Shown here one piece after another: positions 49,294 to 62,741 of a stretch of 64,000 bases of DNA; within the stretch, counting starts at the first letter, position 1; the number at the start of each line of letters is the position of its first letter. Under the pieces are notes generated by a model that saw only the letters and a list, made by a program, of their open reading frames with translations, was not told where the DNA came from and ran no database searches. The translations under genes and the position numbers were made by a program. This DNA comes from Pseudomonadota bacterium (lineage in GTDB: Bacteria > Pseudomonadota > Alphaproteobacteria > Caulobacterales > Parvularculaceae): positions 30,469-94,468 of the forward strand of contig JBCBBT010000001.1 of NCBI GenBank assembly GCA_038531315.1, given 5' to 3'.

Positions 49294-49544
49294 TGGCCGC
49301 GTCCCATCATCAACGCCCGCGTCAGGCCGACGGCGCTGATCGCCAGCCAAAACAATTCGATCACAAACGATGCGGTGTTGAAGGTGTGCATCAGTGAAAA
49401 CAGGATCAAAAGCGCGCCCAGGCCGTTGAGCGTGGGATAAAGCGGGCGATTGACGTCCATCTTTCCGATTTGTGAAAGAAAGTAGGTCGCGACGATAAAA
49501 AAGACGCCGACGAGGCCGACGCCGTCCGCGAAAGTCAGGGCCAT
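49290..49544 (-). CDS. Small (84 aa) three-TM membrane protein, first gene of the nucleoside operon
   Basis: MALTFADGVGLVGVFFIVATYFL...LGALLILFSLMH...FVIELFWLAISAVGL. It is translationally coupled to the PNP gene. The upstream part of the track ORF looks non-coding. Confidence 0.55.
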   Translation of the reverse strand: MALTFADGVGLVGVFFIVATYFLSQIGKMDVNRPLYPTLNGLGALLILFSLMHTFNTASFVIELFWLAISAVGLTRALMMGRGQ

Positions 49545-49672: not shown

Positions 49673-50211
49673 ACAAACTGTAGGAAAGTTTTCCGCATAT
49701 CCTGCTATCGCCCTGTTTTTCGCACGCTTTTTCTAAGGTCGCCAGGCGCAAATAAGTGCGCGCGCGCCGCGTCGCGGACACAGCCGCGAGCGCACGCGAT
49801 TTGCGCGCGACGCCATGTGTCGCCTTTTCCCGCGACTGTGTCCGCAAGCACGCAGTTCGATGACAGATTTATGATAAGACGCGGTCGCGCGACCGAAGAA
49901 TCGCCGCAGTTTTTGTTTCGCGGCGCTCGCCGCCACACGGCGACAAGCGGCCGTACCGAACCGAACGCATTTAACGAAGCGCCATGAAAAAGGGCGCACA
50001 AAAAATCATATCAAGGGGCGCGAAATGGCCAACGATAAAATCGCCATCTGGTTGCGTATTCGGCGATAGTGTCTCAGGGGGTTTTTGGGGGTTACGAGTG
50101 GCCAGTTAGGAATGGCCAATTACGAGTGGCGGATTATGATCGGCAAGTCAGCACACTGATTTCCGGATGATAGCGCTGGCTCTAGTTCGACGGGTCAAGA
50201 TAGGGAAAACC

Positions 50212-52596
50212 ATGTCACGCACAAAAATCTTTTTCATGAACACGATTGCGGCGACAGCAATGATCGCATCCAGTGCAATAGCTCAAGAAGGCGGGGGCCT
50301 TGATGAGATCACTGTCACGGCCACGCGCCAGAGCGAGAACCTGCAGGATATTCCAGTGTCCGTCGCCGTTGTGTCAGGTGAGAAACTCGATGTTCTCGGA
50401 TCCGGCGGCCTTGACGTCCGGTTTTTGTCGGCGCGCATTCCGAGTTTGCAAATTGAATCCTCCTTTGGACGGACCTTCCCGCGGTTTTACATTCGCGGCC
50501 TCGGCAACACCGATTTCGACCTCAACGCCTCGCAGCCGGTATCCCTCGTATTTGACGATGTCATCCTTGAAAACCCGATCCTCAAAGGGTTTCCTGTTTT
50601 TGACCTTGAACGGATCGAGGTGTTGCGCGGCCCGCAGGGCACGCTCTTTGGACGCAATACGCCGGCTGGCATCGTCAAATTCGATTCTAAGAAACCAACC
50701 GATGAATTCGACGCCTACGGACAGGTTTCCTATGGCCGGTTCAACGCCGTAAACTGGGAAGGCGCCATTGGCGGGCCGATCTCAGATACGCTTTCGGTGC
50801 GCGTTTCGACGCTTTTTCAACGCCGCGACGATTTTGTCGATAACCTTGCGCCGGGTTTTGAACAGGAAGACGCCCTTGAAGGCTTTAATGAGTTTGCCGG
50901 CCGGGCGCAGGTCTTGTGGGAGCCGAACGACCGTTTGTCCGTCCTCGGCAACGCCCATGGGCGACGCCTGCGCGGCACGGCGCGTTTGTTCCGCGCCAAC
51001 ATCGCGACCGGCGACAGCGACGGCGTCGCCGATACGCTGACTATCCAGAACGATCCGCTTGACCCGACGGCGGGATCGCAGACCTTTGATTTTGATCGCC
51101 AGCAGGCGTTTGTCGACGGCGTCAACTTTCAGGAAGTCAACGAATTCGGCGCCATCTTGAACGCGAGCTATGATTTCGGCCCTGTGACGCTGACGTCGAT
51201 TTCCGGCTATGAAAGCGCTGAAATTTTCACGCGCGGCGATATTGACGGCGGCACGGGCGATTTCTTCGAGGCGGACTTTTTGCAAAACGTTCTCGGCCTG
51301 CCGCCGACGCCGATTGGCCCCGGCGCCGGCGTAAACCCGCTCATTATCCCCTTCCGCGCCGATACGCAGGATAATATTCCGAGCCTCAATCAGTTGACGC
51401 AGGAATTCCGCCTCGCTTCAAACGGCGACGGGCGTTTCAATTGGCAGACCGGCTTCTTCTACTTCTACGAGGAAGTCGACATTGAAACGATCGACTTCGG
51501 CGATGAAGCGGTGGCGCCGGGCGAAGACACCCCGCAGGCGCTCTCGACGCAGACGCAGATCACGAATTCCTGGGCGCTTTTCGGCTCTGTCGATATTGAT
51601 GTGACCGACCGTCTCAATCTACGCGGCGGCGTTCGGTATACGGATGAGGAAAAGAGCCTATCCGCCTTTCGCCCGATCGATGGTCGCCCTGGGTTCCTCG
51701 GCTTTGGCGGGCCTTTCACGCCGCAACAGGTCGACACCGAAGACGGGGTCGTGAGCTGGGACGTATCGGCGACCTATGCGCTCGACCAGGACACCAACCT
51801 TTACGCGCGCATCGCCCGCGGCTTCCGCGCACCGAGTATTCAGGGCCGTATCGCCTTTTTTGCCTTCGACGGAACCAACGCCGCAAACTCGGTGACAGTC
51901 GGCGATACGGAAACCAACATCTCGTTTGAAGGCGGCATCAAATCGACGCTGGCCGGCGGGCGGGCGCGCCTTAATCTTGGCGGCTTTTATTACACCATCG
52001 ATAACCAGCAGCTGACCGCTGTGGGCGGCACGCAAAACTTCAACTCGCTGTTGAACGCGGATGAGACCGTCGGTTACGGGTTTGAATTCGATCTCGACTG
52101 GCAGGTGAACGACAATCTTCTCGTTACAGCGGGCACAAGCTACAACTTTACGGAAATTCGCGACCCCGGCCTGACGACGGCGGGGTGCGGTTTTCTTCAG
52201 TGCACGATCACCGACCCGTTCACAGTGGTTGGCGGCGTACCGATCGTGAATATTGACGGCAACCGCCTGCCCCAGGCGCCGCGCTGGATCGCCAACTGGA
52301 CAGCGCGCTACGGCGTTCCGTTCCGCGATGGCGAATTGTTCGTCTTCACAGACTGGGCGCTCCGCACCCGGGTGAATTTCTTCCTGTATGAGTCGCTCGA
52401 ATTCCAGGACGACTTCCTGATCGAAGGCGGCCTGCGGGCCGGCTATGTCTGGGCGGACGGCAAGCGCGAACTTGCGGCGTTCGGGCGCAACATCACGAAC
52501 GATCTGTCGCTTACGGGGGCGATCGACTTCAACAACCTCACCGGCTTTATCAACGAGCCGCCTACCTGGGGCGTTGAATTCAGAACCAGTTTCTAA
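50212..52596 (+). CDS. TonB-dependent outer-membrane receptor
   Basis: Signal peptide, TonB-box/plug region (LDEITVTATR, ERIEVLRGPQGTLFGRNTPAG), a long beta-barrel, and a terminal aromatic residue (EFRTSF). Confidence 0.92.
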   Translation: MSRTKIFFMNTIAATAMIASSAIAQEGGGLDEITVTATRQSENLQDIPVSVAVVSGEKLDVLGSGGLDVRFLSARIPSLQIESSFGRTFPRFYIRGLGNTDFDLNASQPVSLVFDDVILENPILKGFPVFDLERIEVLRGPQGTLFGRNTPAGIVKFDSKKPTDEFDAYGQVSYGRFNAVNWEGAIGGPISDTLSVRVSTLFQRRDDFVDNLAPGFEQEDALEGFNEFAGRAQVLWEPNDRLSVLGNAHGRRLRGTARLFRANIATGDSDGVADTLTIQNDPLDPTAGSQTFDFDRQQAFVDGVNFQEVNEFGAILNASYDFGPVTLTSISGYESAEIFTRGDIDGGTGDFFEADFLQNVLGLPPTPIGPGAGVNPLIIPFRADTQDNIPSLNQLTQEFRLASNGDGRFNWQTGFFYFYEEVDIETIDFGDEAVAPGEDTPQALSTQTQITNSWALFGSVDIDVTDRLNLRGGVRYTDEEKSLSAFRPIDGRPGFLGFGGPFTPQQVDTEDGVVSWDVSATYALDQDTNLYARIARGFRAPSIQGRIAFFAFDGTNAANSVTVGDTETNISFEGGIKSTLAGGRARLNLGGFYYTIDNQQLTAVGGTQNFNSLLNADETVGYGFEFDLDWQVNDNLLVTAGTSYNFTEIRDPGLTTAGCGFLQCTITDPFTVVGGVPIVNIDGNRLPQAPRWIANWTARYGVPFRDGELFVFTDWALRTRVNFFLYESLEFQDDFLIEGGLRAGYVWADGKRELAAFGRNITNDLSLTGAIDFNNLTGFINEPPTWGVEFRTSF

Positions 52597-52620
52597 AAGC
52601 TGGCGGTTTTTGCATTTTAC

Positions 52621-52656
52621 CCCCTCCGCAGCGCTGCGCTGCGGAGGGGTTTTTTT
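52621..52656 (+). terminator. Strong intrinsic terminator after the TonB-dependent receptor gene
   Basis: 13-bp perfect stem CCCCTCCGCAGCG-ctg-CGCTGCGGAGGGG followed by TTTTTTT. Confidence 0.9.
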
Positions 52657-52684
52657 CGCCGCAAATCTCACGCCCCCTCGCGAT

Positions 52685-54811
52685 TTATTGGTTGGCCGTT
52701 CCCTTCGGCTTGAGGACCGTCAGCCTTTCGCCGGGTCGGCGCTCATTTGAAATATCTTCAAGGACGCCGTTTTCCATTTTTAAAACGCGGTCGGCGATAC
52801 GGATCAGCTCCGGGCGATGGGCGATGACAAATTTTGTCATCGCCATCGATTTCAGGACAATGCCGATCTCTTTTTCAGCCGCTTCATCGAGATTGGCCGT
52901 TCCCTCATCAAGAAACAGCATCTCCGGATTTCGATAGAGCGCCCTCGCCAACAGCAGCCTCTGGCGCTGGCCCCCGGACAAGGCTGCGCCCATGTCGCCG
53001 ATATAGGAAAAATAACCCATGGGCATCGCCTCGATTTCATCGGCGATACGCGCGGCGGCCGCGGCCTTCTTCACACGCTCATCGTCAAGCTCAGGATCAA
53101 AAAAAGCAATATTTTCCGATATCGTGCCCGACAACAGATTATCGTCCTGCATGACAACGCCAATCTGTGAACGGAAGTTCCTCAATCCGTGCGCAGCAAT
53201 CGAACGACCGTCAACGAGGACGCTGCCGGAAGACGGCGCCAATAGGCCGAGCATCACTTTCAACAGTGTCGTCTTACCGCCGCCCGAGGGGCCCGTAAGG
53301 GCGACAAACTCGCCGGCGCCGATCTCAACATTCACATTCTCGAACACACAAGGTTCGTGCACGCTATAGCGAAAGCTGAGATTGTCGAGCTTCATCGCGC
53401 CCGTTAGCGCGGCTTGCCCGTGCGCAGCGGCGCGATCAAGGCCCTCCTCCCGCGGGGTTTGCACGATATCGGTCAGCCGGTCGACATGGAGCCCGAGCAT
53501 TCGAAACTCAATGCCCTTTTCAACTAGCCCCAATACGCGCTCGACGAAATTCTGCCTGTACGCCATGAATGCGAAAAGCATCCCGATGGTCATATCGCCG
53601 CTCATCACAAATAACGAGCCGGCGAAAACGATCAGCACCACCTGAAAGCCAAAGGCCAGCGCATTGGCCAGCTTCAGGATGATTGTCAGTTTTTCTTCCG
53701 CAATCGTCGCATTGACAACGCGGGTATAAGCATTGCGCCAACCCGCTTCGCGATCGGCCTCTCCGCCAAAAAGTTTAATCGCGCGGGCGCCGTTCAGCGT
53801 CTCCATCAGGAAAGTCTGCTCGACCGCCTTGTCGATAATCTTCTGCTCATTGCGACGGCGGAGCATAGGGAAAAGAATGAGCGATACGCCAGCGAATATC
53901 GCAGTCGTAAAGAATACGATCAGAGCGAGCCGCCAGTCGTAATAGATGATCAGCGCCGCTGTCGTCAGCGCCATCAAGCCATCGATCAAGGCTGCGACAA
54001 CGCCTTGCGTCATCGCTTCTTGTATCGGCTGCACCGACATCATGCGGGAAATAATGTCGCCCATGTGACGTTTTTCAAAATACGATGTCGGTAGCCTGAT
54101 CAAATGGCGCAGAACATTGCCGGCCATTTGAAAGGTCAGCGATTGACCGATCAGCAGGATGACGAGCGACCGCAGGGCTTCGGTCGCCGCGCTCAGGAGA
54201 TACAAAAACCCAAATCCCAGCGCGAGGATCAACAAAAAATTCTGGTCATATCGGATGATCGCTTCGTCGACGGCGATTTGCAGATAGAGCGGCAACGCAA
54301 GAACAAAGGCCTGATAAATAACCGATAGCAAAATGATTTGCGCCAGCGCCCTTTTGAGGCCGCTCATCTTGCTCCAGAAATCTGTCAACCGCGTACGGAC
54401 CAGATGTGATTGCGGTTTGAAGCTGGCCGTGGGCGAAAGCTCCAGCGCCACACCGGTGAAATGGCTTGACGCCTCCGACAGCGACATCTGAATGCGGCCG
54501 CGCGCCGGATCGTTGATCACAAGCTTGTCGCCGCGGGTTTTCACCAGAACGACAAAGTGGCTCATGTCCCAGTGTAAGATCGCCGGACAGGAGAGATCGG
54601 GCAGGCTCTCCAGCTCCAGCTTGACGGCGCGCGCGCTCAGCTCAAGGTCGTCAGCGATCGCAATGAGCTGGCGCAGCGTCGCGCCTTTTAACGACGGCGC
54701 ATATTTCTGTCGCAACTGAAGAATATCGATGTGGAGGCCATAATGTGAAGCGACCATTGCAAGACTTGCAAGGCCGCATTCGGTCGCTTCGCCCTGAATG
54801 ATTGTTTTCAT
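52685..54811 (-). CDS. lanT: Bacteriocin/lanthipeptide ABC exporter with N-terminal C39 leader peptidase (LanT/CvaB-like)
   Basis: C39 domain with catalytic Cys (QGEATECGLASLAM), His (HWDMSHFVVL) and Asp (NDPARG). It has six TM segments, Walker A GPSGGGKTTLLK, signature LSGGQRQRLLLARAL and Walker B MLFLDEGT. Confidence 0.92.
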   Translation of the reverse strand: MKTIIQGEATECGLASLAMVASHYGLHIDILQLRQKYAPSLKGATLRQLIAIADDLELSARAVKLELESLPDLSCPAILHWDMSHFVVLVKTRGDKLVINDPARGRIQMSLSEASSHFTGVALELSPTASFKPQSHLVRTRLTDFWSKMSGLKRALAQIILLSVIYQAFVLALPLYLQIAVDEAIIRYDQNFLLILALGFGFLYLLSAATEALRSLVILLIGQSLTFQMAGNVLRHLIRLPTSYFEKRHMGDIISRMMSVQPIQEAMTQGVVAALIDGLMALTTAALIIYYDWRLALIVFFTTAIFAGVSLILFPMLRRRNEQKIIDKAVEQTFLMETLNGARAIKLFGGEADREAGWRNAYTRVVNATIAEEKLTIILKLANALAFGFQVVLIVFAGSLFVMSGDMTIGMLFAFMAYRQNFVERVLGLVEKGIEFRMLGLHVDRLTDIVQTPREEGLDRAAAHGQAALTGAMKLDNLSFRYSVHEPCVFENVNVEIGAGEFVALTGPSGGGKTTLLKVMLGLLAPSSGSVLVDGRSIAAHGLRNFRSQIGVVMQDDNLLSGTISENIAFFDPELDDERVKKAAAAARIADEIEAMPMGYFSYIGDMGAALSGGQRQRLLLARALYRNPEMLFLDEGTANLDEAAEKEIGIVLKSMAMTKFVIAHRPELIRIADRVLKMENGVLEDISNERRPGERLTVLKPKGTANQ

Positions 54812-54851
54812 TGCGGCGTCCACAGATAAAAAATGGCCCGGTCCATATTGC

Positions 54852-56072
54852 TCAGGTCCCGGACTGCAAAAGGCGCCACATGCGCCGCCGCTCAAGCAAA
54901 ATGTCGGCCTTTAAAAGCATGCCCGCTTGCAGCGGAAAGCGATCGTCATTGAAGGAAATCGACTGCTCCTCGATATCGACTGTGACGCTGTAGACCGGCT
55001 CTTCAAGCGCAACCGAAATCGGCAGCTCGCTCGGATTATAAACCGACCGCGAAATGGTATTCACGGTGCCGCGCACGACGCCGAATTTCTGATGGGGAAA
55101 CGCGTCCAGGCGCAGGTTCACATCCTGGCCGGATTTTACAAAGCCGGCCGCACTGGTCGGCACGAACAATTCGACTTGCAGGTACCCGCCCTCCGGGATA
55201 AGCGCCATCAGCATTCTGCCGCCGCCGGCGGTCTGCCCTTTGCGTAGCGGCGCCGCGGCGATAGAGCCCGCGACGGGCGCCGTCAGAACGATGCTCCGGC
55301 TCGCTTCATATTCCGCGCGTTGACGTGAAAGCGTCTCCAACTGGTTTCTCAATTCCGACGCCGCCGCTTGCCGGTCGCCGGGAAGATCGACAAGCACCCC
55401 TTCCGCCTCCTCGATCTGACGGGTAATCGCCAGCCGCTCACGCCCCAGCTGGGTCTGGTTTTGCGTCAAAATCAGCAAGGCTTCTTCATGCTCAAGCACT
55501 TCGATATCGGACGCATTATCTTCGGCGGCGAGCGCGCGATAACGCCCGAGCACCTGATCAGCAATTCTGACGCGCTGCTTCTGGGCTCTTTCCTGTTGTT
55601 GGACGGCGGCCAGTTCAACCTTCAGGCTTTCGACGCGCGCCCTCAGCTGTCGCTCTTTTGCGTCATACTGTTTTTGAAGCGGCGCGAGGCGCTCATAAAC
55701 CTCGTTGTACTGCGCATTGAGGCTTTCCAGTTTCACGGTCGCAGCGCTTCGCCCGTCGGTCAGCGCGTTGTCGAAGTCAAGCGTCACAAGCCGCGCGCCG
55801 GCGGCGACCACATCGCCTTCTTTTGCATGAACTTCCTGGATTACTCCTTCTTGCGAAGAGACAATTCGTACAAGGCCTTTATCGGGGGCCAGCCATCCGA
55901 TTACCGTTTGCTTTCGCGTATAAGAAGCAAAGACCAGAAAAATGAGAAGGCCGATGAACAATAGCGATAATAGAAGCGTGATCGTCCAGTGAGATAACGG
56001 CGTATCAAGGCGCACTTCGCCGTAGAGGCGTTGCGTTTGTTTCTCGACGACTTCTTTTCGAAAAAGTGCCAT
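54852..56072 (-). CDS. HlyD-family secretion adaptor (CvaA/LcnD-like bacteriocin export accessory protein)
   Basis: N-terminal LFRKEVVEKQTQRLYGEV plus a TM segment, a long coiled coil, and a C-terminal beta-barrel (LLKADILLERRRMWRLL). Start placed at MALFRKE; the track ORF opens at 56093. Confidence 0.88.
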   Translation of the reverse strand: MALFRKEVVEKQTQRLYGEVRLDTPLSHWTITLLLSLLFIGLLIFLVFASYTRKQTVIGWLAPDKGLVRIVSSQEGVIQEVHAKEGDVVAAGARLVTLDFDNALTDGRSAATVKLESLNAQYNEVYERLAPLQKQYDAKERQLRARVESLKVELAAVQQQERAQKQRVRIADQVLGRYRALAAEDNASDIEVLEHEEALLILTQNQTQLGRERLAITRQIEEAEGVLVDLPGDRQAAASELRNQLETLSRQRAEYEASRSIVLTAPVAGSIAAAPLRKGQTAGGGRMLMALIPEGGYLQVELFVPTSAAGFVKSGQDVNLRLDAFPHQKFGVVRGTVNTISRSVYNPSELPISVALEEPVYSVTVDIEEQSISFNDDRFPLQAGMLLKADILLERRRMWRLLQSGT

Positions 56073-56114
56073 AGCGTTGATTATGACCGGCAAAATCCGT
56101 GATGACGAGGAATT

Positions 56115-59100
56115 TTAGCGCGGCGGCTCAAGCGCCAATATCGACGGCGTTTCGGGATCGGCGCACCGCAAGAGGCCATAACCGATCCCGGCGACGCCGG
56201 ACATCATGCCAAGCGGCTGCACCTGCGGGGCAAAACCGGTCCGCCAGCCGACTTTGGAGATGCTTTTGAGGACGCCGGCGGCGATCCGGTCGACGGCGTC
56301 CGACAAGTCCGGCTTGTCCAGTGCGGCCGCCATGACGCGCATACAATCGAGATTTCCAAAATCGCCGTGGCAAAGGCTGTGATTGCGGCCAAACCCTTCC
56401 GTGCGCGTCGTTGCGGCGGCTGTAAGAATCTCCTCGTCAACGTCGCCGCCGGACGGCGCCAGACCCTGCCGTTTCATCAGGGCCCGACTGAGACCGATCC
56501 CCGGCGCGCCGTGGCACCAGGCGACAACAAAGTTCTCAGATTGCGCTTCGGTTTCGCCGGGCCTCAGCCCTTCACGGACGTCGCGCCAATTGCCTTCTCG
56601 CGGGGCGAAAAGACTTCGATCATAGGCCAGCGCTTTCTCGCCAACTGCAGAAAATCGCTGGTCGCCAAATGCTTTGCCAAGCCGTCGCAATGCCAGTGCA
56701 ATGCCGGCAGCCCCGTGGGAAAATCCACCCAGCGGTTTTGGGCCGGCGACGTCCAGCAACCAGCCGGCGCCAGTTTCAGTTTCTACAACATTCGTCAGCA
56801 AATGGTCGCCGCAGGCAAGCGCATGGTCGCGCAGGTCGGGGTCGCCGCAATCGATCAGATTTAGCGCGCTTAACAAAAATCCGGCCGCGCCCCCCACGAC
56901 GTCGTAGATCCTGTCATCGCGCGCGAGCGTTTCGGCCGGCGGCAGCAGCTCCATGATGTCTGAGACAGTCGACGGATCATCCCACAACGACGACAAATGA
57001 TGCGCCGTATAGAGAAGGCTTCCCCATCCGGTGAAAGCGCCGATGCCGTCGACCTGTCGCCGCCCGCCGCGCAAGATAAATACCGTATTTCGCCAGGCCG
57101 CTTCAGCGATATCACGATAGGCGCCCTCGCCCGACGTCTTTGCAAGATAGGCGAAAAAGAGCGCCATGCCCGGCAAACCGGAATAAAGGTCCTCTCCAGC
57201 GTCGCGGTAGACCCAATGTACGCTTTCGCCAGGCACACACGTGAACCACGAGGCGCCGCCGCCGCCGCGAAAACTCAACCGCGCAAGATATTCAGCAACG
57301 TCCCTCGCGGCGTTCAGATAGTCCTGCGGCGGACAAACCGACGGCGCCGCATCAATGGGGTAATCTTCAAACCCGCCGGCGCCCGCATTCGCCGCGCGCA
57401 CGGACAGTGATTTCTCGATTAGCCAACTCTGTCGCAGCCGGTCGGCGGGGCCGAAGTTTTCGAGCTTTTCGGCCATCGTTTCGCGCGCTGAGACGGGGAA
57501 AAAATCGTCGAAGGTTTCACCATTGCAAGCTGTCAGCGACCGTTCGCCGACAAGCGTTGAAAAAGCCGGAATATCATTGCGCCAATAGGCTGCGCGCTCG
57601 GCTTCAGCGACGTGCGCCAGGACAGGATATCGCACGACATCGACCCAAAGCCGATCGAAATAAAGATCCCGCTCAAGCGCGTTGCCCAGCATTCGTGGAT
57701 GAAATGCGTCCGATAGTTGCAGCCCATAATAAAATGTCGGCCGCAGAATAATTCGGACCTGCGCATCGTCGAACACGCTGAGAGGTCCGCGCTTTGACAA
57801 TAAGAATTCTCGATTTTTCGCGAGCATGTCATAAGCGTCATGAAAGCCATCGAGGAGGTCGGCAAGGAAGTCGCTCGCGTCAACTGGCGCGCCTTGCAAG
57901 GTTGCGAGATGATTGCCAGGCGGGATCGGCGTCTTTTCACGTATTAGCCGCATGCGATCCGTACCGGGATCAGCAATGACGAGCAACGCCACAGACGATA
58001 ACTGGTCGCCCGCGGTCAAGCCGCCGATATCGACGCCGTCGCGGGCGTCGCCGGTTTTCCAAATCTGTTGCGGCAAGAGGCCAGGCCCGAGAACTGACCT
58101 GAACACTTCGTTTCCTGGCGGCGCATGGTCGCCGAGAAATCCAAGTAACGACAAATCTGGCTGGATCAGCGTTTCAAGATCGACGAGCATGGGAAACGCG
58201 CCGGCGGCGATAATGTTCTCGTGGTGAAAGTCGCTCGCGTTGAACAGATAAAGCAAGCCCAAATAAGCGCCTTGCCGGTAGAAAAAATCCTTGACCTCGC
58301 CTGCGTCAGCGCAGGGCTTTTGCTCGATATATTCGACCCAGCCATATCCATCTTGCGCCAGGACCTGCGGGAGCTTCAGGTCTTTTTTCAGATCCTGCGC
58401 ATTCACCCAATCAATGAAGCCTGCGAATGCGCAATAGATCGAGAGCGACTGCGGCCGATATACGAGTTTCTCCCCCGTTGAAAATTTTAGGATCGATACA
58501 GATCGTCCGCCATGGTGATCATCGCCAGCTTCAAGCACAATTGACGCAAGCTGTTTTGCCTCCCCCGAAAAGAACATTTCGAAAATCGCCGCTTCATCGC
58601 GAACGTAGGCGTCCAGCAGCTCGCTGACAAAGCGCTCCCATTGCGCAATCGCCTCCAGCAAGAGCCTCAACAGCACCGGATAAGCCTCAAGCAACGTGTT
58701 CCGGTAGTCGGGCTCACCCACAAGCGCGCAGAAATGATCGAAACGGGCCCGCGGCGTTGTTCCGTCTAATTCCTTGTGCTCTCGCTTGCGTTCCAGTTCT
58801 TGCAGAAGCGCGCGCTGCGCCATTCTCGCGACTTTGCCCAGCAGAAATGAAAATGCGTCGTCGACAAATTCCCGCCTGTTTAGGTGGGATTGCGCACCCG
58901 CCGCGACGCTATATTGGTCAATCCGGGCATAGGCGGCGGCTAACTCAGGGCCGACAAGCGCCGGGAAAACCTCAAGGTGTTCGGCGTTCGCCGGCGGAAT
59001 GCGCGCTAACAACTCACGCCATTTTTCGTCATAGCCGCCAGTTTCGCGGACATGCTCTTGGGGGATATGGCCGACAATGTTGCCGTGTAACGCATGGTTG

Positions 59101-59549
59101 TCGCGTGACGCACGGCTATCAGATGACGCATTGACCAGATCGTCCTGCGTGCGGCGCTTAGTTTCTGGATTCACGGAGAAAAGCCGCCGACCGGTATCGT
59201 TGTCCGAAGCGCCCGCAAGTTCCGCCGGCGTCGGTTCTAACGACAGAACATCGATAAAACCCTCAAAGGTGAGGTCGGAGGCTTCGAGGCGCCGGCTAAA
59301 AACATCGTCATTTTCAAAGGGACGTTGCGCGCGCCACCGCTGCACCAAATCTAGCAAGTCAATGTTCGAGCCGCGCGTTGCGTAATTTTCATGCTTATCG
59401 ACGTGCAGCGCCTCAGCACCCAGCCCATCGACATAATTGTCGCCGCCGTCGCTAACGAGGCCACGCGACATCGTGCGCGCTGCAATCAGTTTTTTTCGGT
59501 CGTTAAGGTTTAGAGCGCGTGCGCGCGATCCCATCTTGCGTTCCAACAT
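56115..59549 (-). CDS. lanM: Class II lanthipeptide synthetase (LanM: dehydratase plus LanC-like cyclase)
   Basis: Dehydratase region motifs GDDHHGGRSV, YRPQS, DFHHENIIA and LVDLET. The C-terminal cyclase carries GFSHGAAGIALAL, WCHGAPGIGLSR and SLCHGDFGN (Cys/Cys/His zinc ligands). It is about 1140 aa; the start could be the second ATG at 59534. Confidence 0.93.
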   Translation of the reverse strand: MLERKMGSRARALNLNDRKKLIAARTMSRGLVSDGGDNYVDGLGAEALHVDKHENYATRGSNIDLLDLVQRWRAQRPFENDDVFSRRLEASDLTFEGFIDVLSLEPTPAELAGASDNDTGRRLFSVNPETKRRTQDDLVNASSDSRASRDNHALHGNIVGHIPQEHVRETGGYDEKWRELLARIPPANAEHLEVFPALVGPELAAAYARIDQYSVAAGAQSHLNRREFVDDAFSFLLGKVARMAQRALLQELERKREHKELDGTTPRARFDHFCALVGEPDYRNTLLEAYPVLLRLLLEAIAQWERFVSELLDAYVRDEAAIFEMFFSGEAKQLASIVLEAGDDHHGGRSVSILKFSTGEKLVYRPQSLSIYCAFAGFIDWVNAQDLKKDLKLPQVLAQDGYGWVEYIEQKPCADAGEVKDFFYRQGAYLGLLYLFNASDFHHENIIAAGAFPMLVDLETLIQPDLSLLGFLGDHAPPGNEVFRSVLGPGLLPQQIWKTGDARDGVDIGGLTAGDQLSSVALLVIADPGTDRMRLIREKTPIPPGNHLATLQGAPVDASDFLADLLDGFHDAYDMLAKNREFLLSKRGPLSVFDDAQVRIILRPTFYYGLQLSDAFHPRMLGNALERDLYFDRLWVDVVRYPVLAHVAEAERAAYWRNDIPAFSTLVGERSLTACNGETFDDFFPVSARETMAEKLENFGPADRLRQSWLIEKSLSVRAANAGAGGFEDYPIDAAPSVCPPQDYLNAARDVAEYLARLSFRGGGGASWFTCVPGESVHWVYRDAGEDLYSGLPGMALFFAYLAKTSGEGAYRDIAEAAWRNTVFILRGGRRQVDGIGAFTGWGSLLYTAHHLSSLWDDPSTVSDIMELLPPAETLARDDRIYDVVGGAAGFLLSALNLIDCGDPDLRDHALACGDHLLTNVVETETGAGWLLDVAGPKPLGGFSHGAAGIALALRRLGKAFGDQRFSAVGEKALAYDRSLFAPREGNWRDVREGLRPGETEAQSENFVVAWCHGAPGIGLSRALMKRQGLAPSGGDVDEEILTAAATTRTEGFGRNHSLCHGDFGNLDCMRVMAAALDKPDLSDAVDRIAAGVLKSISKVGWRTGFAPQVQPLGMMSGVAGIGYGLLRCADPETPSILALEPPR

Positions 59550-59560
59550 CTGAAACGACA

Positions 59561-59585
59561 GGCCGGCCTCAAAAAGAGGCCGACC
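59561..59585 (-). terminator. GC-rich hairpin between the precursor gene and lanM (candidate attenuator)
   Basis: The minus-strand RNA is GGUCGGCCUC-UUUUU-GAGGCCGGCC (10-bp stem, one mismatch). It lies 16 nt after the lanA stop and 11 nt before the lanM ATG. Confidence 0.6.
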
Positions 59586-59600
59586 CTTGATCGTCGCCGA

Positions 59601-59786
59601 TCAATAGCAGTGCTTCGGCGGGCAAGGCGAGCTAAACGGCGACGGGCCGCCGCAACCGCCGGAAACGCTGGCGAGCGCTTCGTCGTCGAGCTCGAGAATA
59701 TCCCCGGCCGCGCTCTTCTTCGGCTCGGCAAGTGCTTCTCTCTTCTTGGGGTCACGCAACGCTTTGAGCAAGTCTTCTTTTTTCAC
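59601..59786 (-). CDS. lanA: Lanthipeptide precursor peptide (LanA), double-glycine leader plus a 17-aa Cys/Ser/Pro-rich core
   Basis: MKKEDLLKALRDPKKREALAEPKKSAAGDILELDDEALASVSGG | CGGPSPFSSPCPPKHCY. GTG start 4 nt after the strong SD GAAGGAGG. It sits immediately upstream of lanM, and I translated it by hand from the DNA. Confidence 0.85.
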   Translation of the reverse strand: MKKEDLLKALRDPKKREALAEPKKSAAGDILELDDEALASVSGGCGGPSPFSSPCPPKHCY

Positions 59787-59916
59787 AAGTCCTCCTTCAG
59801 CGACGCAGAGGTCACTGTTGTTAATGTAAAAATGCTAGACACTCTAAGGCTTGAAAGAAGTCTTTGACGCCACTCGCATTGAGCAATACTAGCTATACGG
59901 ATCAAAAACGTCTTCC

Positions 59917-59930
59917 GTTTACAGGTAAAC
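59917..59930. promoter_or_regulatory. Perfect inverted repeat GTTTAC-AG-GTAAAC in the AT-rich region upstream of lanA
   Basis: 6+2+6 palindrome about 130 bp upstream of the lanA start, within a 280-bp stretch of markedly lower GC. Confidence 0.4.
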
Positions 59931-60066
59931 ACCTTTTTCATTCGCCAACAAGTAAAAAATCGATCATGTCGGCTCGACGCCCGGAGTAAACTACACGGTG
60001 TACAAACTTTTACCTGATCGTTTTCAAACCGCTGGCTACGCATCAATGCGGAAACCGGCGCCAAAA

Positions 60067-61626
60067 TCAGCCAAGCATTGCGACGATTCGGCGCGCAACT
60101 CGGAAACTGTTGGCGAGAATCGTCAGCGTCGGCGGGGAACCGCCGGACGTCGGCATAAAGGAGCCGTCGACAACGAAAACCCCCCGGGTCCCGTGGAGTT
60201 GGCAATCCCTATCGAGCACGGAGACCGACGGATCAACGCCAGCGCGGCACGTGCCCATGACAAGATAGGACGATGTCGCACCGATATCGGTGAGCTTTAC
60301 AGATGTCGCGCCTACATCTTCGAGGATTTCCCCAGCGCGCGCGCCAAGCCATGCGCCGACTTTTCTGTGATGCGGATGCGGATCGAGGTGTATCCGCGCG
60401 ACCGGCAGTCCCCAACGGTCTGTGACGTTATCATCTAACTCAATAAATGTGTCATCCGTAGCGAGATAATCGTGGAAAACTTCAAAGTGTAGACGCTTTG
60501 ACCGACCATCATGACGCGCGTCGTCGTCCGGCCTTAGCTGCGGTTCAAAATCAAAGCGGATGACGCCGCCCTTTGCCAGCGCGCAGACATCGTCCGGCAG
60601 GAAGTAATAATCCATGACTGAGCGACCGACGAAGGGATCGCCGCTCTCGTCAGCATTGCCGGCGCCTTGCGGCAGGTCGCCATGGCCCATGGTGACCGCG
60701 TGAAATTGCAAATTGCGGCCAACGAGACCATTGTCGTTGCCGAGGCCGTCAGGAAACCGGGCCGATTTTGACAACAAAAGAAGGCGCGCCGATTCAATGG
60801 CTGAGGCGCAGATGCAAACGATCTTCGCTTCGACTTCAATGTCAGCGCCGGCCTCGTTGCGGTAAACAACGCCCTTTGCGCCGCTATGTCCGACGCGCAC
60901 CTCGCGGACCATTGCATTTGCTTCAACGCGGCAAAAACCGGTTGCTTCCGCGCGCGGCAACAGGGCTGCCTGCGTTGACCCGCGCGCGCCCGTCGGACAA
61001 CCGAACCCCGCACATGACGGGCAATAGGAGCACGCCGGCCGGCCCTGATACGCTGATGAATTCACGGCGCGCGGCGTCGGGAAAGCCGTGAGCCCGCGCG
61101 CCCTGCATGCGCTTTCAATATCGGCGGCGATCGGATGGGCGCGCAACGGGGCCATCGGATAGGCCGACGAGCGCGCGCCTTCGAACGGGTTGGCGCCGCT
61201 AAGACCGCTGACCCCCGCCTCACGTTCCGCCTCTGTGTAGAAGGGCTCCAGGTCGTGATAGCCAAAGGGCCAGTCGGCAAGCCCGAAGCCGCCTCCAAAG
61301 CGAGACCGCATCCGGAAATCATCCGGATGAAACCGATAGAAGTAAGCGCCCATATGCGCCGTTCCGCCGCCGACGCATGAGGCGACCCAGCCCAGCGTTG
61401 TCCGGTGCGCCATTGTCGTTTTTTTGGTTACAACAGTGTGGGGATCATCTTCAATCGAGGGCGTGAACAGGCCGTGTTCAATGACAAGCGGGTCATGAAC
61501 ATAATCGTCCGGATCAAAGCGCGGGCCTTTTTCAAGGACCAGCACGTTCTTTTTCGCCTGCGACAAGCGCAACGCCAACGGGCCGCCGCCCGCGCCGCTT
61601 CCAATGATGACAACATCAACGCGCAT
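60067..61626 (-). CDS. GMC-family FAD-dependent oxidoreductase
   Basis: N-terminal dinucleotide fold VDVVIIGSGAGGGPLALRL, and the length and C-terminal region are typical of GMC oxidoreductases. Start placed at MRVDVV; the track ORF opens at 61680. Confidence 0.85.
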   Translation of the reverse strand: MRVDVVIIGSGAGGGPLALRLSQAKKNVLVLEKGPRFDPDDYVHDPLVIEHGLFTPSIEDDPHTVVTKKTTMAHRTTLGWVASCVGGGTAHMGAYFYRFHPDDFRMRSRFGGGFGLADWPFGYHDLEPFYTEAEREAGVSGLSGANPFEGARSSAYPMAPLRAHPIAADIESACRARGLTAFPTPRAVNSSAYQGRPACSYCPSCAGFGCPTGARGSTQAALLPRAEATGFCRVEANAMVREVRVGHSGAKGVVYRNEAGADIEVEAKIVCICASAIESARLLLLSKSARFPDGLGNDNGLVGRNLQFHAVTMGHGDLPQGAGNADESGDPFVGRSVMDYYFLPDDVCALAKGGVIRFDFEPQLRPDDDARHDGRSKRLHFEVFHDYLATDDTFIELDDNVTDRWGLPVARIHLDPHPHHRKVGAWLGARAGEILEDVGATSVKLTDIGATSSYLVMGTCRAGVDPSVSVLDRDCQLHGTRGVFVVDGSFMPTSGGSPPTLTILANSFRVARRIVAMLG

Positions 61627-61709
61627 AAGCTTGCCGAAGGCTAAAGCAAAAGGCCCTTGACGCCTATAGCGCGCCGTCATCTATTCAGGCGGCGGAAGGA
61701 CGCGGACGC

Positions 61710-62741
61710 ATGACCGATACCGACACATCAACCACGCCGCCTGACGCCGCAGCCGAGGACCGGTTTCGAAAACTCGCCAATGCCTATCAGATTTCCTGCG
61801 CCGTGAACGCAGCGGCGCGACTGCGGCTATACGAAAATCTGGACCATGCGCCGGTTCCGGCCAACATATTGGCGGAACGCGTTGGCGCGAGCGCCGGACC
61901 GTTTCGGCGACTACTCGATTTTTTGGCGCAACTCGGCGTGGTACGGATCAATTCCAGCGCTCACGTATCGCAAACCGACTTAACGCCGTTGCTCGCATCT
62001 GTTGACTCGATTGCAGAAGGTGATCACGCCGTCGACGCGTGGCAAGCCTTGCCCGAGGCGCTCAAAACCGACAAGACGCCTTTTGAAGTTGCGCATGGCG
62101 CGCCATTTTACGCCGTTGCGAAAAACAACGACGCCCGGGCGGCGGCCTGGATCGATCGGAACCGTCGGATCGCGGCGCGCTGGGCCGGTCCTGTGGCCGA
62201 CGCGCTTCCTTTGCGCGCTGGCGCACGGATCGCCGATCTCGGCGCCGGCAATCTGGCGCTTGCGCGCGCCGTCGCGCGCCGCCAGAACGACGCCGACATC
62301 ATTGTTGCGGACTTGCCTTTTGTCATCGAGGAACTCGGCGGCGCCGATCGATCGCCCCTCGACGACCGCCACATCAGTCTGCTCCCGTGTAATCTTCTGG
62401 AAGACCCGATCCCCGAAGCAGACGCGTTTACACTGTCACGCGTGCTCTTGAATTTCGGCGATAAAGACGTGATCGCGATCTTGCAAAAATGTCGTCAGTC
62501 GCTGCGCGAAGACGGCAGGATATTTATCGCCGAAACCCTGATGCCGGCGCCAGACGACCCGCGCCGGGCCTTCCAGGCGGCGCACGATCTTCATCTTCAC
62601 GTATTGTGGGGTAGCAAACAGCGCACCTTCGAGGCCTTCGCCGAATTGATAACTGAAGCAGGCCTCGCCCCTACAGAAACAATCGACGTTTTCGATCAGG
62701 GCCAATCTCTGTGCACCGTCGTCGTTGCAGGCCACAGATAA
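61710..62741 (+). CDS. Class I SAM-dependent O-methyltransferase (COMT/ASMT-like, with N-terminal dimerisation/winged-helix domain)
   Basis: 343 aa. An N-terminal helix-rich region is followed by a SAM motif I-like IADLGAGNLALARAV and acidic loop IVADLP. The overall pattern matches small-molecule O-methyltransferases. Confidence 0.8.
   Translation: MTDTDTSTTPPDAAAEDRFRKLANAYQISCAVNAAARLRLYENLDHAPVPANILAERVGASAGPFRRLLDFLAQLGVVRINSSAHVSQTDLTPLLASVDSIAEGDHAVDAWQALPEALKTDKTPFEVAHGAPFYAVAKNNDARAAAWIDRNRRIAARWAGPVADALPLRAGARIADLGAGNLALARAVARRQNDADIIVADLPFVIEELGGADRSPLDDRHISLLPCNLLEDPIPEADAFTLSRVLLNFGDKDVIAILQKCRQSLREDGRIFIAETLMPAPDDPRRAFQAAHDLHLHVLWGSKQRTFEAFAELITEAGLAPTETIDVFDQGQSLCTVVVAGHR

What the first reader, a model, noticed from the sequence alone, without database searches (positions are those of the whole stretch)
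59601..59786. Atypical precursor: 44-aa double-glycine leader and a 17-aa proline-rich core CGGPSPFSSPCPPKHCY
The leader ends with ILELDDEALASVSGG, a good match to the ELxxxxLxxVxGG double-glycine motif processed by C39 exporters. The predicted core occupies 59604-59654. It has 3 Cys (positions 1, 11, 16), 3 Ser (5, 8, 9), no Thr and 5 Pro. Cys1 has no upstream Ser/Thr partner within the core. It would therefore need a reverse-direction ring, stay free or form a disulfide. It could instead belong to the leader if cleavage uses the second Gly-Gly (GGCGG | PSPF...). At most two conventional Ser-to-downstream-Cys lanthionines are then possible, in a very rigid Pro-rich scaffold. I do not recognise this core from known lanthipeptides.
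Basis: partly seen in the sequence, partly recalled or inferred. Interest (0 to 1): 0.8.

Follow-up and report, generated by a model that had tools for sequence, protein, structure and literature searches.

The report
Thiazole-capped lanthipeptide precursor gene
This small gene encodes the precursor of a ring-bridged bacterial peptide. Its puzzling first cysteine is probably turned into a thiazole by the flavoenzyme encoded next door, a chemistry first described in 2026, which makes this a new relative of a recently discovered natural-product family.

Summary
A 61-aa ORF at 59601-59786 (-) has a 44-aa double-glycine leader and the core CGGPSPFSSPCPPKHCY. It lies directly upstream of an intact LanM, a HlyD adaptor and a C39-ABC exporter. 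Orthologues show purifying selection.

This GMC-family flavoprotein is 57% and 62% identical to ThaO and TheO. Those enzymes were shown in 2026 (PMC13083261) to convert the Gly(-1)-Cys1 pair of a ...S-x-S-G-G-C motif in LanM precursors into a thiazole.

The window peptide carries that motif (SVSGG-C-GG). Of 114 unique related cores, 112 start with Cys. GMC presence tracks Cys1: five of five Cys1 loci found through the precursor have the enzyme, and two of two loci without Cys1 lack it.

So Cys1 is most likely a thiazole. That leaves Ser5 and Ser/Thr9 to form two lanthionines with Cys11 and Cys16. The Pro-rich tail [ST]PCPPxxCY is a module shared by 92 of 114 cores, none of them characterised.

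A conserved O-methyltransferase is an extra element. How the C39 peptidase removes a leader whose scissile bond has been consumed by the thiazole is unresolved. I rate this a new variant of a very recently described kind, of moderate interest.

The parts
59601..59786 (-). lanA precursor gene: leader codons 59655-59786 (44 aa), core codons 59604-59654 (17 aa, CGGPSPFSSPCPPKHCY), stop 59601-59603
   Evidence: The ORF is conserved and under purifying selection, and its leader matches a non-circular ThaA/TheA-type leader HMM at 24.5 bits.
59649..59660 (-). Codons for Gly43-Gly44-Cys45-Gly46, the GG-C-G junction. This is the predicted thiazole site (Gly44 carbonyl plus Cys45) and also the canonical C39 cleavage site.
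   Evidence: The motif is identical in kind to ThaA SISGG-C and TheA TISGG-C-G, where thiazole formation was demonstrated. Of 114 unique family cores, 112 start with Cys.
59791..59798 (-). Shine-Dalgarno GAAGGAGG, 4 nt upstream of the GTG start
   Evidence: GAAGGAGGA is conserved in L002 and L005.
59560..59586 (-). GC-rich 11-bp hairpin between lanA and lanM, probably a partial terminator or stabiliser that sets the precursor:enzyme ratio
   Evidence: MFE -30.3 kcal/mol for the 54-nt spacer, z = -4.9. Hairpins of different sequence occupy the same place in L002 and L005.
60067..61680 (-). GMC-family FAD oxidoreductase, a ThaO/TheO orthologue and the predicted thiazole synthase. The true start is probably Met19 at 61626.
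   Evidence: It is 57% identical to ThaO and 62% to TheO, and falls inside the LanM/GGC-associated clade. Cys217/223/228 align with the 3Fe-4S ligands of FAD-glucose dehydrogenase 6a2u_B.
56115..59549 (-). LanM class II lanthipeptide synthetase (dehydratase plus cyclase)
   Evidence: It contains DUF4135 and LANC_like domains, scores 835 bits against TIGR03897 and 357 bits against LicM2 (6st5). The motifs DFHHENIIA...VDLETL, GFSHG, WCHGAPGI and NHSLCHG are present.
54852..56093 (-). HlyD-family periplasmic adaptor for export
   Evidence: It is conserved at 58-59% identity in L001/L002.
52685..54895 (-). Bifunctional C39 peptidase / ABC exporter (LanT type). The probable start is Met29 at 54811.
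   Evidence: Read from the translation, the catalytic residues Gln6, Cys12, His85 and Asp101 are present (numbered from Met29).
61710..62741 (+). O-methyltransferase (PF08100 plus PF00891), divergent from the GMC gene and a probable extra tailoring enzyme
   Evidence: It is conserved in all alphaproteobacterial loci at 50-51%. It recurs next to GMC and LanM in the unrelated locus L099 at 36% over 310 aa.

Best explanation
The ORF is the precursor (LanA) of a thiazole-capped class II lanthipeptide of the ThaA/TheA type. It is encoded in a six-gene island: O-MT <-|-> GMC - lanA - lanM - hlyD - C39/ABC.

Proposed pathway:
1. LanA is made in excess over LanM, helped by a strong Shine-Dalgarno and a hairpin after lanA. 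This step is inferred.
2. LanM binds the divergent mersacidin-type leader and dehydrates Ser5 and Ser9 (Ser8 possibly as well). Its zinc cyclase domain then adds Cys11 and Cys16, giving two lanthionines. The rings are either nested (Ser5-Cys16 with Ser9-Cys11, as determined for ThaA) or overlapping (Ser5-Cys11 with Ser9-Cys16). The enzyme is intact; the ring pattern is inferred.
3. The upstream GMC flavoenzyme, a ThaO/TheO orthologue, oxidises Cys1 and closes it onto the Gly(-1) carbonyl. This gives a thiazole (-20.03 Da) and leaves no free thiol. The step is inferred from homology, motif and co-occurrence.
4. The O-methyltransferase may add a methyl group. Its closest solved relatives are phenolic natural-product O-methyltransferases, so the invariant C-terminal Tyr17 is a candidate substrate. 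This is speculative.
5. The C39-ABC/HlyD pair exports the product. The thiazole consumes the Gly(-1)-Cys1 amide, so the canonical GG| cut cannot be made on the fully modified peptide. The true N-terminus of the product is therefore open.
For: - Gene reality and selection.
- LanM is intact, with kinase/lyase and zinc-ligand motifs.
- The GMC is 57% identical to ThaO (397 aa) and 62% to TheO (369 aa), whereas LanM is only about 37% identical to ThaM/TheM.
- In an NJ tree the window GMC falls inside the clade holding ThaO, TheO and every LanM/GGC-linked GMC. It is separate from a TheB-linked sister clade that has no LanM, and from generic relatives at about 35% identity.
- The published experiments show a -20 Da shift and NMR evidence for a thiazole at Gly(-1)-Cys1. 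C1A abolishes it. In TheA, G(-1)A abolishes it, G(-2)A is tolerated, and cores of 8 or more residues suffice (PMC13083261).
- The window has SVSGG-C-GG, with three residues between Cys1 and the first Ser, as in the LanM-independent substrate TheA.
- Family survey: 112 of 114 unique cores start with Cys directly after GG.
- Natural experiment: precursors found independently of the GMC and carrying Cys1 all have a ThaO-clade GMC beside LanM (L094, L096, L097, L098, L099; 5/5). The Myxococcota locus L093, syntenic with L094, lacks the GMC and has only GG|R and GA|D precursors. Cystobacter fuscus L092 has GG|G and no GMC.
- After removing Cys1, the residues conserved in the four subfamily sequences are exactly two Ser/Thr (5, 9) and two Cys (11, 16). 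This matches the two lanthionines of ThaA.
- The six-gene module is conserved while its flanks differ.
Against: - Nothing has been tested for this peptide or for any PCPP-type core. Only ThaA and TheA, which have different cores, were characterised.
- The cluster encodes a catalytically complete C39 peptidase and an invariant GG. That argues for cleavage at the very bond the thiazole would remove, so the two processes conflict and one may not occur on the same molecule.
- ThaO needed ThaM, and TheO activity was impaired by G2A, so substrate rules are not fully transferable.
- The window lacks the TheB small subunit found in the 'the' cluster.
- The leader falls below the curated TIGR03898 cut-off (19.4 against 23.5 bits).
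- The context test is small: 5/5 against 0/2, Fisher p about 0.05.
Confidence: 0.75

Rival explanations
1. This is a plain class II lanthipeptide. The C39 transporter cuts after Gly44. Cys1 stays free, forms a disulfide, or makes a reverse-direction lanthionine with Dha5. The GMC enzyme plays no part.
For: The double-glycine leader and a complete C39 catalytic set are present. The core has three Ser and three Cys, which numerically allows three rings. From my own knowledge, not tested here, reverse Cys-before-Dhx rings and N-terminal Cys disulfides are known in the mersacidin/haloduracin family.
Against: Ser8 is Gly in homologue P0003, so only two Ser/Thr are conserved against three Cys. The GMC gene is conserved in the island, is more conserved than LanM across phyla, and tracks Cys1 in related loci. 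Its orthologues act on exactly this Cys.
Confidence: 0.13
2. Cys1 belongs to the leader. The transporter cuts after the second Gly-Gly (GGCGG|PSPF...), giving a 14-residue product with two lanthionines. Any thiazole is discarded with the leader.
For: C1-G2-G3 is invariant in the four alphaproteobacterial sequences. A cut there would avoid the conflict between the thiazole and the C39 cut.
Against: Outside this subfamily residues 2-3 are mostly not Gly-Gly (S-Y, S-F, G-T, C-L). The hydrophobic -4/-7/-12 register of the leader fits the first GG. Pro (Val in P0003) would sit at P1', which proteases generally disfavour. Making a thiazole only to discard it has no obvious purpose.
Confidence: 0.05
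3. The GMC enzyme modifies this peptide, but in a different way. It could oxidise another Cys or a Ser/Thr side-chain alcohol, or it could act on a small molecule that the O-methyltransferase also uses.
For: GMC enzymes typically oxidise alcohols. The nearest solved structures are sugar dehydrogenases. The O-methyltransferase resembles small-molecule phenol O-methyltransferases.
Against: The 57-62% identity to two enzymes with a demonstrated thiazole-forming activity and the shared GGC motif make a change of reaction unlikely. The other Cys residues are preceded by Pro or His rather than the required Gly.
Confidence: 0.06
4. The ORF is not expressed. It is either a chance ORF or a decayed gene.
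For: It uses a GTG start, and no promoter was detected by the consensus scan in the GMC-lanA spacer.
Against: It has a strong Shine-Dalgarno, and orthologues carry ATG at the same codon. Synonymous changes exceed non-synonymous ones (21 against 8). The downstream hairpin is conserved, and the tailoring and export genes are intact.
Confidence: 0.01

Closest known systems
tha and the clusters (ThaA/ThaM/ThaO; TheA/TheM/TheO) of Thermoanaerobaculia, PMC13083261 (Nature 2026)
   Same: All have a mersacidin-type leader ending S-x-S-G-G, followed directly by Cys. All have a LanM. The GMC-family oxidoreductase is 57-62% identical. The tha cluster also has a C39/ABC exporter. ThaA has two lanthionines plus one thiazole, which matches the conserved 2 Ser/Thr + 3 Cys of the window core.
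   Different: The host is an alphaproteobacterium rather than an acidobacterium. The core is unrelated in sequence to ThaA and TheA: it is the PCPP type, 17 aa with only 3 Cys. The window has no TheB or TheN. It has an added O-methyltransferase and a HlyD adaptor. The gene order is GMC-lanA-lanM. Nothing has been tested experimentally.
[quoted passage not shown]
   Same: They share the GG|C junction and the C-terminal module [ST]-P-C-P-P-x-x-C-Y. The ending PCPPKHCY is identical in many. LanM, GMC and C39-ABC are neighbours.
   Different: Those cores are typically 21 aa with 5 Cys, with consensus CS-x3-CPTSA[YI]C[ST]PCPPK[HY]CY. The window subfamily lacks the CPTSAxC unit and has Ser/Gly where 88 of 92 have Cys before [ST]PCPP. 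Its N-terminal half instead resembles the 3-Cys subfamily CG[TR]P[ST]TFVSSCV[KH]PPxxCP.
Mersacidin / lichenicidin alpha / haloduracin alpha precursors (TIGR03898)
   Same: They share a long leader of the same family, LanM processing and a C39-type exporter. LicM2 is the closest solved LanM.
   Different: The match is below the curated cut-off (19.4 against 23.5 bits). From my own knowledge, the window has no CTxTxEC lipid II-binding motif. It has no LanD and no C-terminal Cys. It has a GMC enzyme and a GG-C junction.
YcaO/azoline-dehydrogenase thiazole formation (microcin B17, cyanobactins, thiopeptides)
   Same: The end product is a thiazole built from an X-Cys dipeptide in a ribosomal peptide.
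   Different: None of the six cluster genes has a YcaO, E1-like or FMN-dehydrogenase Pfam domain. The chemistry is proposed to be FAD-dependent Cys oxidation followed by cyclodehydration, without ATP.
FAD-glucose dehydrogenase and fructose dehydrogenase catalytic subunits (6a2u_B, 7w2j_A)
   Same: These are the closest solved folds to the GMC enzyme (171 and 140 bits). The Cys-rich segment aligns with their 3Fe-4S ligands.
   Different: Their substrates are sugars. They work with a small Tat subunit and a cytochrome c subunit, and neither is encoded in the window.

Membership tests
Class II (LanM) lanthipeptide precursor | A bifunctional LanM synthetase with dehydratase and LanC-like cyclase domains is encoded next to the peptide gene. 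| tested here: met
   PF13575 plus PF05147, TIGR03897 at 835 bits against a cut-off of 304. The kinase motif DFHHENIIA..VDLETL and the zinc-ligand motifs WCHGAPGI and NHSLCHG are present.
Class II (LanM) lanthipeptide precursor | The peptide has an N-terminal leader and a C-terminal core containing Ser/Thr and Cys. | tested here: met
   Ser5, Ser/Thr9, Cys11 and Cys16 are conserved in all four subfamily sequences.
Class II (LanM) lanthipeptide precursor | Dehydration and thioether rings are actually installed. | not testable with these tools
   This needs MS/MS and thiol labelling of the co-expressed peptide.
Double-glycine leader / C39-ABC export | The leader has the GG motif with hydrophobic -4/-7/-12 residues, and the transporter has a catalytically complete C39 domain. 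| tested here: met
   The leader ends ...L(-12)DDEAL(-7)ASV(-4)SGG. PF03412 matches at 122 bits. Gln6, Cys12, His85 and Asp101 (numbered from Met29) were read from the translation.
Mersacidin/lichenicidin precursor family (TIGR03898) | The score reaches the curated NCBIfam cut-off. | tested here: not met
   19.4 bits against a cut-off of 23.5 (E = 7.5e-4). The 87%-identical homologue P0001 carries that name at NCBI. The window peptide is a divergent relative rather than a scoring member.
ThaA/TheA-type GMC-thiazole lanthipeptides (PMC13083261) | A GMC-family oxidoreductase orthologous to ThaO/TheO is in the cluster. | tested here: met
   57% and 62% identity, and placement inside the clade containing ThaO, TheO and all LanM/GGC-linked GMCs.
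ThaA/TheA-type GMC-thiazole lanthipeptides (PMC13083261) | The leader-core junction is Gly-Gly-Cys, with Gly at position -1. | tested here: met
   SVSGG-C-GG; 112 of 114 unique family cores start with Cys.
ThaA/TheA-type GMC-thiazole lanthipeptides (PMC13083261) | The leader is homologous to those of ThaA and TheA. | tested here: met
   an HMM built without alphaproteobacterial sequences gives 24.5 bits over leader residues 1-44. It is divergent, lacking the Trp of RAW and the LPxxPA segment.
ThaA/TheA-type GMC-thiazole lanthipeptides (PMC13083261) | A thiazole (-20.03 Da) is formed from Gly(-1)-Cys1. | not testable with these tools
   This needs co-expression with MS/MS and NMR.
YcaO-dependent azole RiPPs | A YcaO cyclodehydratase and an azoline dehydrogenase are in the cluster. 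| tested here: not met
   none of the six cluster genes carries such a domain. The rest of the window was not scanned for them.
AviCys lanthipeptides (LanD/HFCD) | The core has a C-terminal Cys and the cluster has an HFCD flavoprotein decarboxylase. | tested here: not met
   The core ends in Cys16-Tyr17, and no HFCD gene is in the cluster.

The most novel reading that the evidence does not exclude
In this family the thiazole is built on the very amide bond that the cluster's own C39 peptidase is expected to cut. The system must therefore use a non-canonical way to release the peptide. The cut could be shifted, leaving an N-terminal aminomethyl-thiazole. A second protease could be involved. Alternatively, thiazole formation could act as a switch between a released and a leader-attached product.

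The product of this minimal alphaproteobacterial version would be a thiazole-capped, bicyclic and possibly Tyr-O-methylated 18-mer. Its hypervariable residue after Pro-Pro (K/R/M/L) might work as a protease-inhibitor P1 loop rather than as part of an antibiotic. In addition, the GMC enzyme may carry an Fe-S cluster and act as a dehydrogenase rather than an oxidase.
Probability: 0.25. Interest if true: 0.7.

Novelty: new variant of a known kind. Interest (0 to 1): 0.5.

Why it matters
YcaO-independent, flavin-dependent thiazole formation in ribosomal peptides was reported only in 2026, and only for two acidobacterial substrates. This window offers a compact six-gene proteobacterial version with the smallest substrate seen in the survey (17 aa, 3 Cys).

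- **The dominant core type.** The core belongs to the PCPP type, which accounts for 92 of 114 unique related cores, and none of these has been studied.
- **Wider evidence for the enzyme-substrate link.** The survey extends the GMC-Cys1 link to Alphaproteobacteria and Myxococcota. It includes a natural loss-of-gene / loss-of-Cys comparison.
- **An extra tailoring enzyme.** A recurrent O-methyltransferase appears in this cluster and in an unrelated one.
- **An open mechanistic question.** The original paper did not address how a C39 double-glycine peptidase deals with a leader-core junction that has been turned into a heterocycle.
- **Practical use.** The enzyme is a candidate biocatalyst for installing thiazoles. 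The ThaA product inhibited neutrophil elastase, so bioactivity is plausible.

Tried and rejected
- **Pfam scan of the 61-aa peptide:** no hit.
- **TheB and TheN homologues in the window:** tblastn found none.
- **Literature search for the core motif** (PCPPKHCY, CPPKHC, SPCPP, TPCPP): no relevant paper.
- **Myxococcus class II lanthipeptide literature:** nothing on this family.
- **Promoter scan of 52-62 kb:** no convincing sigma-70 site ahead of lanA. The terminator scan caught only part of the hairpin.
- **Reverse Cys1-Dha5 ring or Cys1 disulfide:** considered and set aside. Only two Ser/Thr are conserved against three Cys, and a dedicated Cys1-modifying enzyme is present.
- **Second-GG cleavage:** rejected on family conservation and Pro at P1'.
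- **AviCys formation:** rejected because the C-terminal residue is Tyr and there is no HFCD gene.
- **YcaO route:** rejected because the cluster has no such gene.
- **Ring topology from family covariation:** attempted, but the data do not distinguish nested from overlapping rings.
- **tRNA or other integration-site marks:** none found in 48-64 kb.
- **Not attempted:** I did not try to identify the host organism beyond its similarity to Parvularculaceae MAG loci.

Full report
**1. Observation**

It starts at a GTG that lies 4 nt after a GAAGGAGG Shine-Dalgarno. In three orthologous loci the same codon is ATG. It is the only small ORF in the window with a double-glycine motif followed by a Cys-containing tail.

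A GC-rich 11-bp hairpin at 59560-59586 separates it from lanM. The 54-nt spacer folds at -30.3 kcal/mol with z = -4.9. Hairpins of different sequence occupy the same position in two orthologous loci.

Compared with the L002 orthologue, 21 codons differ only synonymously and 8 change the amino acid. In the core, 6 changes are synonymous and 2 are conservative. The gene is therefore under purifying selection.

**2. Surroundings**

Four genes follow on the same strand, downstream of the GMC gene:
- lanA.
- A LanM at 56115-59549. It carries PF13575 and PF05147 and scores 835 bits against TIGR03897. Its closest solved structure is LicM2 (6st5). The kinase and zinc-ligand motifs are intact.
- A HlyD adaptor at 54852-56093.
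- A C39-peptidase ABC exporter at 52685-54895, with the Gln/Cys/His/Asp catalytic set.

Immediately upstream of lanA, on the same strand, lies a GMC-family FAD oxidoreductase (60067-61680). A PF08100/PF00891 O-methyltransferase is transcribed divergently from it (61710-62741).

The same six-gene module occurs in Parvularculaceae and other Pseudomonadota MAG contigs. Identities there are GMC 75%, LanM 56-57%, HlyD 58-59%, ABC 79% and O-MT 50-51%. The genes outside the module are unrelated between those contigs and the window. The module also has a somewhat lower G+C than its flank. It behaves as a discrete island.

**3. The key lead**

A literature search for lanthipeptide plus GMC oxidoreductase returned PMC13083261 (Nature 2026). 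Each has a mersacidin-like precursor, a LanM and a GMC-family oxidoreductase (ThaO, TheO).

The paper's findings:
- The oxidoreductase converts Gly(-1)-Cys1 of the junction ...S-I-S-G-G-C into a thiazole. This was shown by a -20.03 Da shift, isotope labelling, MS/MS and NMR.
- C1A abolishes the modification.
- In TheA, G(-1)A abolishes it, G(-2)A is tolerated and G2A impairs it.
- Cores of 8 or more residues suffice.
- ThaA also carries two nested lanthionines, Ser2-Cys16 and Thr6-Cys13.

The sequences are ThaA = ...DLQSISGG|CSGICTYGGWPTCFCC and TheA = ...ILKTISGG|CGITSTK.... The window peptide has the same junction...ALASVSGG|CGG.

**4. Tests of that lead**

*Enzyme identity.* The window GMC is 57% identical to ThaO over 397 aa and 62% identical to TheO over 369 aa. 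LanM is only about 37% identical to ThaM and TheM.

*Enzyme clade.* A metagenome scan with a GMC alignment gave 80 loci, with a bimodal identity distribution. In an NJ tree the window enzyme lies inside the clade that contains ThaO, TheO and every GMC linked to a LanM or a GGC precursor. A sister clade is linked to TheB-like small subunits and has no LanM. Generic relatives sit at about 35% identity.

*Precursors near the enzyme.* A leader HMM finds precursors only beside clade members, and every one has Cys directly after GG.

*Leader homology.* An HMM built without the alphaproteobacterial sequences still aligns the whole window leader, at 24.5 bits.

*Family size.* A profile search of the large protein collection gave 1759 hits. 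Among the best 120 plus the earlier ones there are 114 unique cores, and 112 of them begin with Cys.

*Context test free of selection on the GMC.* Five Cys1 precursors chosen from the profile hits all have a clade GMC next to LanM: L094, L096, L097, L098 and L099. The two profile hits without Cys1 do not. L093 is syntenic with the Myxococcus locus L094, yet it has no GMC gene between the helicase and LanM, and its precursors read GG|RSEPEQ... and GA|DSCEQ.... Cystobacter fuscus L092 reads GG|GILEP... and has no GMC within 10 kb.

The sample is small, but the pattern is what a dedicated Cys1-modifying enzyme predicts.

**5. The core**

The Pro-rich tail is not idiosyncratic. The module [ST]-P-C-P-P-x-x-C-(Y/F/P/L) closes 92 of 114 unique cores, and PCPPKHCY itself is common. 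Typical members are 21 aa with 5 Cys, for example CSYEYCPTSAYCSPCPPKHCY.

The window subfamily is the shortest, at 17 aa with 3 Cys. It has Ser/Gly where 88 of 92 cores have Cys before [ST]PCPP. Its N-terminal half resembles a second 3-Cys subfamily, CG[TR]P[ST]TFVSSCV[KH]PPxxCP.

Within the four subfamily sequences the conserved reactive residues are Cys1, Ser5, Ser/Thr9, Cys11 and Cys16. Ser8 is Gly in P0003. With Cys1 assigned to the thiazole, two Ser/Thr and two Cys remain, enough for two lanthionines as in ThaA. Both Ser precede both Cys, so the rings must be nested or overlapping. The data do not decide which.

No paper in the searchable library mentions this motif.

**6. Mechanism proposed**

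- LanM dehydrates Ser5 and Ser9 and forms two thioethers.
- The GMC flavoenzyme oxidises Cys1 and cyclises it onto the Gly44 carbonyl to give a thiazole.
- The O-methyltransferase may add a methyl group. Its nearest solved relatives are phenolic natural-product O-methyltransferases such as 6c5b, DnrK and MmcR. A 36%-identical copy sits in the same position in the unrelated cluster L099.
- The C39-ABC/HlyD pair exports the product.

What is shown here is gene integrity, homology, motif conservation and co-occurrence. The chemistry on this peptide, the ring pattern, the methylation and the order of steps are inferred.

**7. An unresolved conflict**

The thiazole consumes the Gly(-1)-Cys1 amide, which is the canonical scissile bond of the cluster's own C39 peptidase. 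That peptidase appears catalytically complete. Gly(-2) is invariant in nature even though TheO tolerates Ala there, which suggests selection by the peptidase.

The paper does not address leader removal. In Myxococcus L094 one transporter serves GG|D, GA|D and GG|C precursors. The N-terminus of the mature thiazole peptide is therefore unknown. Possibilities are a shifted cut, a second protease, or retention of the leader.

**8. Comparison and novelty**

The system works like the tha/the pathway and meets the testable membership criteria: an orthologous GMC, the GGC junction, a homologous leader and a LanM.

It differs in these respects:
- host phylum;
- core type (an uncharacterised PCPP core in minimal form);
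- gene order;
- the added O-methyltransferase and HlyD adaptor;
- absence of TheB and TheN.

It does not reach the curated cut-off of the mersacidin/lichenicidin model. It has no YcaO or LanD component.

I rate it a new variant of a very recently described kind. Interest is moderate. The window nevertheless supplies a minimal, compact example of the largest uncharacterised branch of the family, and it raises an open mechanistic question.

Noticed in passing
window 60067-61680 (-), GMC residues 214-231: The invariant segment RPAC-xY-C-xx-CAG-x-GC (Cys217, 220, 223, 228) is conserved in ThaO and TheO. Cys217, 223 and 228 align with Cys212, 218 and 222 of Burkholderia FAD-glucose dehydrogenase (6a2u_B). 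From my own knowledge those are its 3Fe-4S ligands. The thiazole-forming enzymes may therefore carry an Fe-S cluster and act as dehydrogenases. I did not find this in the parts of the paper I read.
   Followed up: partly
window 61710-62741 (+); L099 5530-6531: A PF08100/PF00891 O-methyltransferase is conserved in all alphaproteobacterial copies of the island. A 36%-identical one sits between GMC and LanM in an unrelated cluster whose precursor core is CCYPGNNTVTLCTGICSPCPPVHCY. It is a recurrent accessory enzyme with an unknown substrate.
   Followed up: partly
L093 vs L094/L095 (Myxococcota); L092 (Cystobacter fuscus CP022098): Syntenic loci differ by presence or absence of the GMC gene. Correspondingly, one precursor reads GG|C... 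where the gene is present and GG|R... where it is absent. Other precursors in the same operons (GG|D, GA|D) carry the PCPP module without Cys1.
   Followed up: yes
window 59550-59603 (-): Two adjacent hairpins follow the lanA stop codon, and the second has an 11-bp GC-rich stem. The U-tract after it is weak (UGUCGUUUCAG), so it may be an attenuator or an mRNA stabiliser rather than a full terminator.
   Followed up: partly
window 58950-59549 (-), LanM residues 1-200: LanM has an N-terminal extension of about 200 aa before the region that aligns with LicM2 and CylM. The LanM of L099 aligns from residue 57 onward, so part of the extension is shared outside the alphaproteobacterial group. Gene callers start the orthologues about 59 codons later than the longest ORF.
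   Followed up: no
family cores, window core positions 14-15: The two residues between Pro-Pro and the last Cys are the most variable of the C-terminal module. The first is K, R, A, V, Q, M, Y and others, and it is K/R/M/L within the window subfamily. This pattern is reminiscent of a specificity (P1-like) position. The ThaA product was reported to inhibit neutrophil elastase.
   Followed up: no
L098 7827-8258 and 13731-14579: A 3-Cys-type cluster carries a Gluconate_2-dh3 (TheB-like) small subunit overlapping the GMC start. It also has a PCMT-family methyltransferase (protein isoaspartate O-methyltransferase type) next to LanM.
   Followed up: no
window 50167-52596 (+) and 52621-52649: A TonB-dependent receptor gene converges on the ABC exporter gene and ends in a strong 13-bp terminator hairpin. 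It is absent from the orthologous islands, so it is probably not part of the cluster.
   Followed up: no
window 52500-62700 vs 48000-49500: The island has G+C of about 0.53-0.62, against 0.64-0.65 in the neighbouring nucleoside-metabolism genes. The last 500 bases of the window drop to 0.48. This is compatible with horizontal acquisition. No tRNA gene lies nearby.
   Followed up: partly
L007, L011 (ENA records DRIS22-1_SAMN24661225 / SAMN24661204): Contig names of the closest homologous loci follow the same naming style as the external MAG sets listed in the coral-microbiome paper's supplementary tables. This hints that the alphaproteobacterial relatives may come from reef-associated samples.
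   Followed up: no
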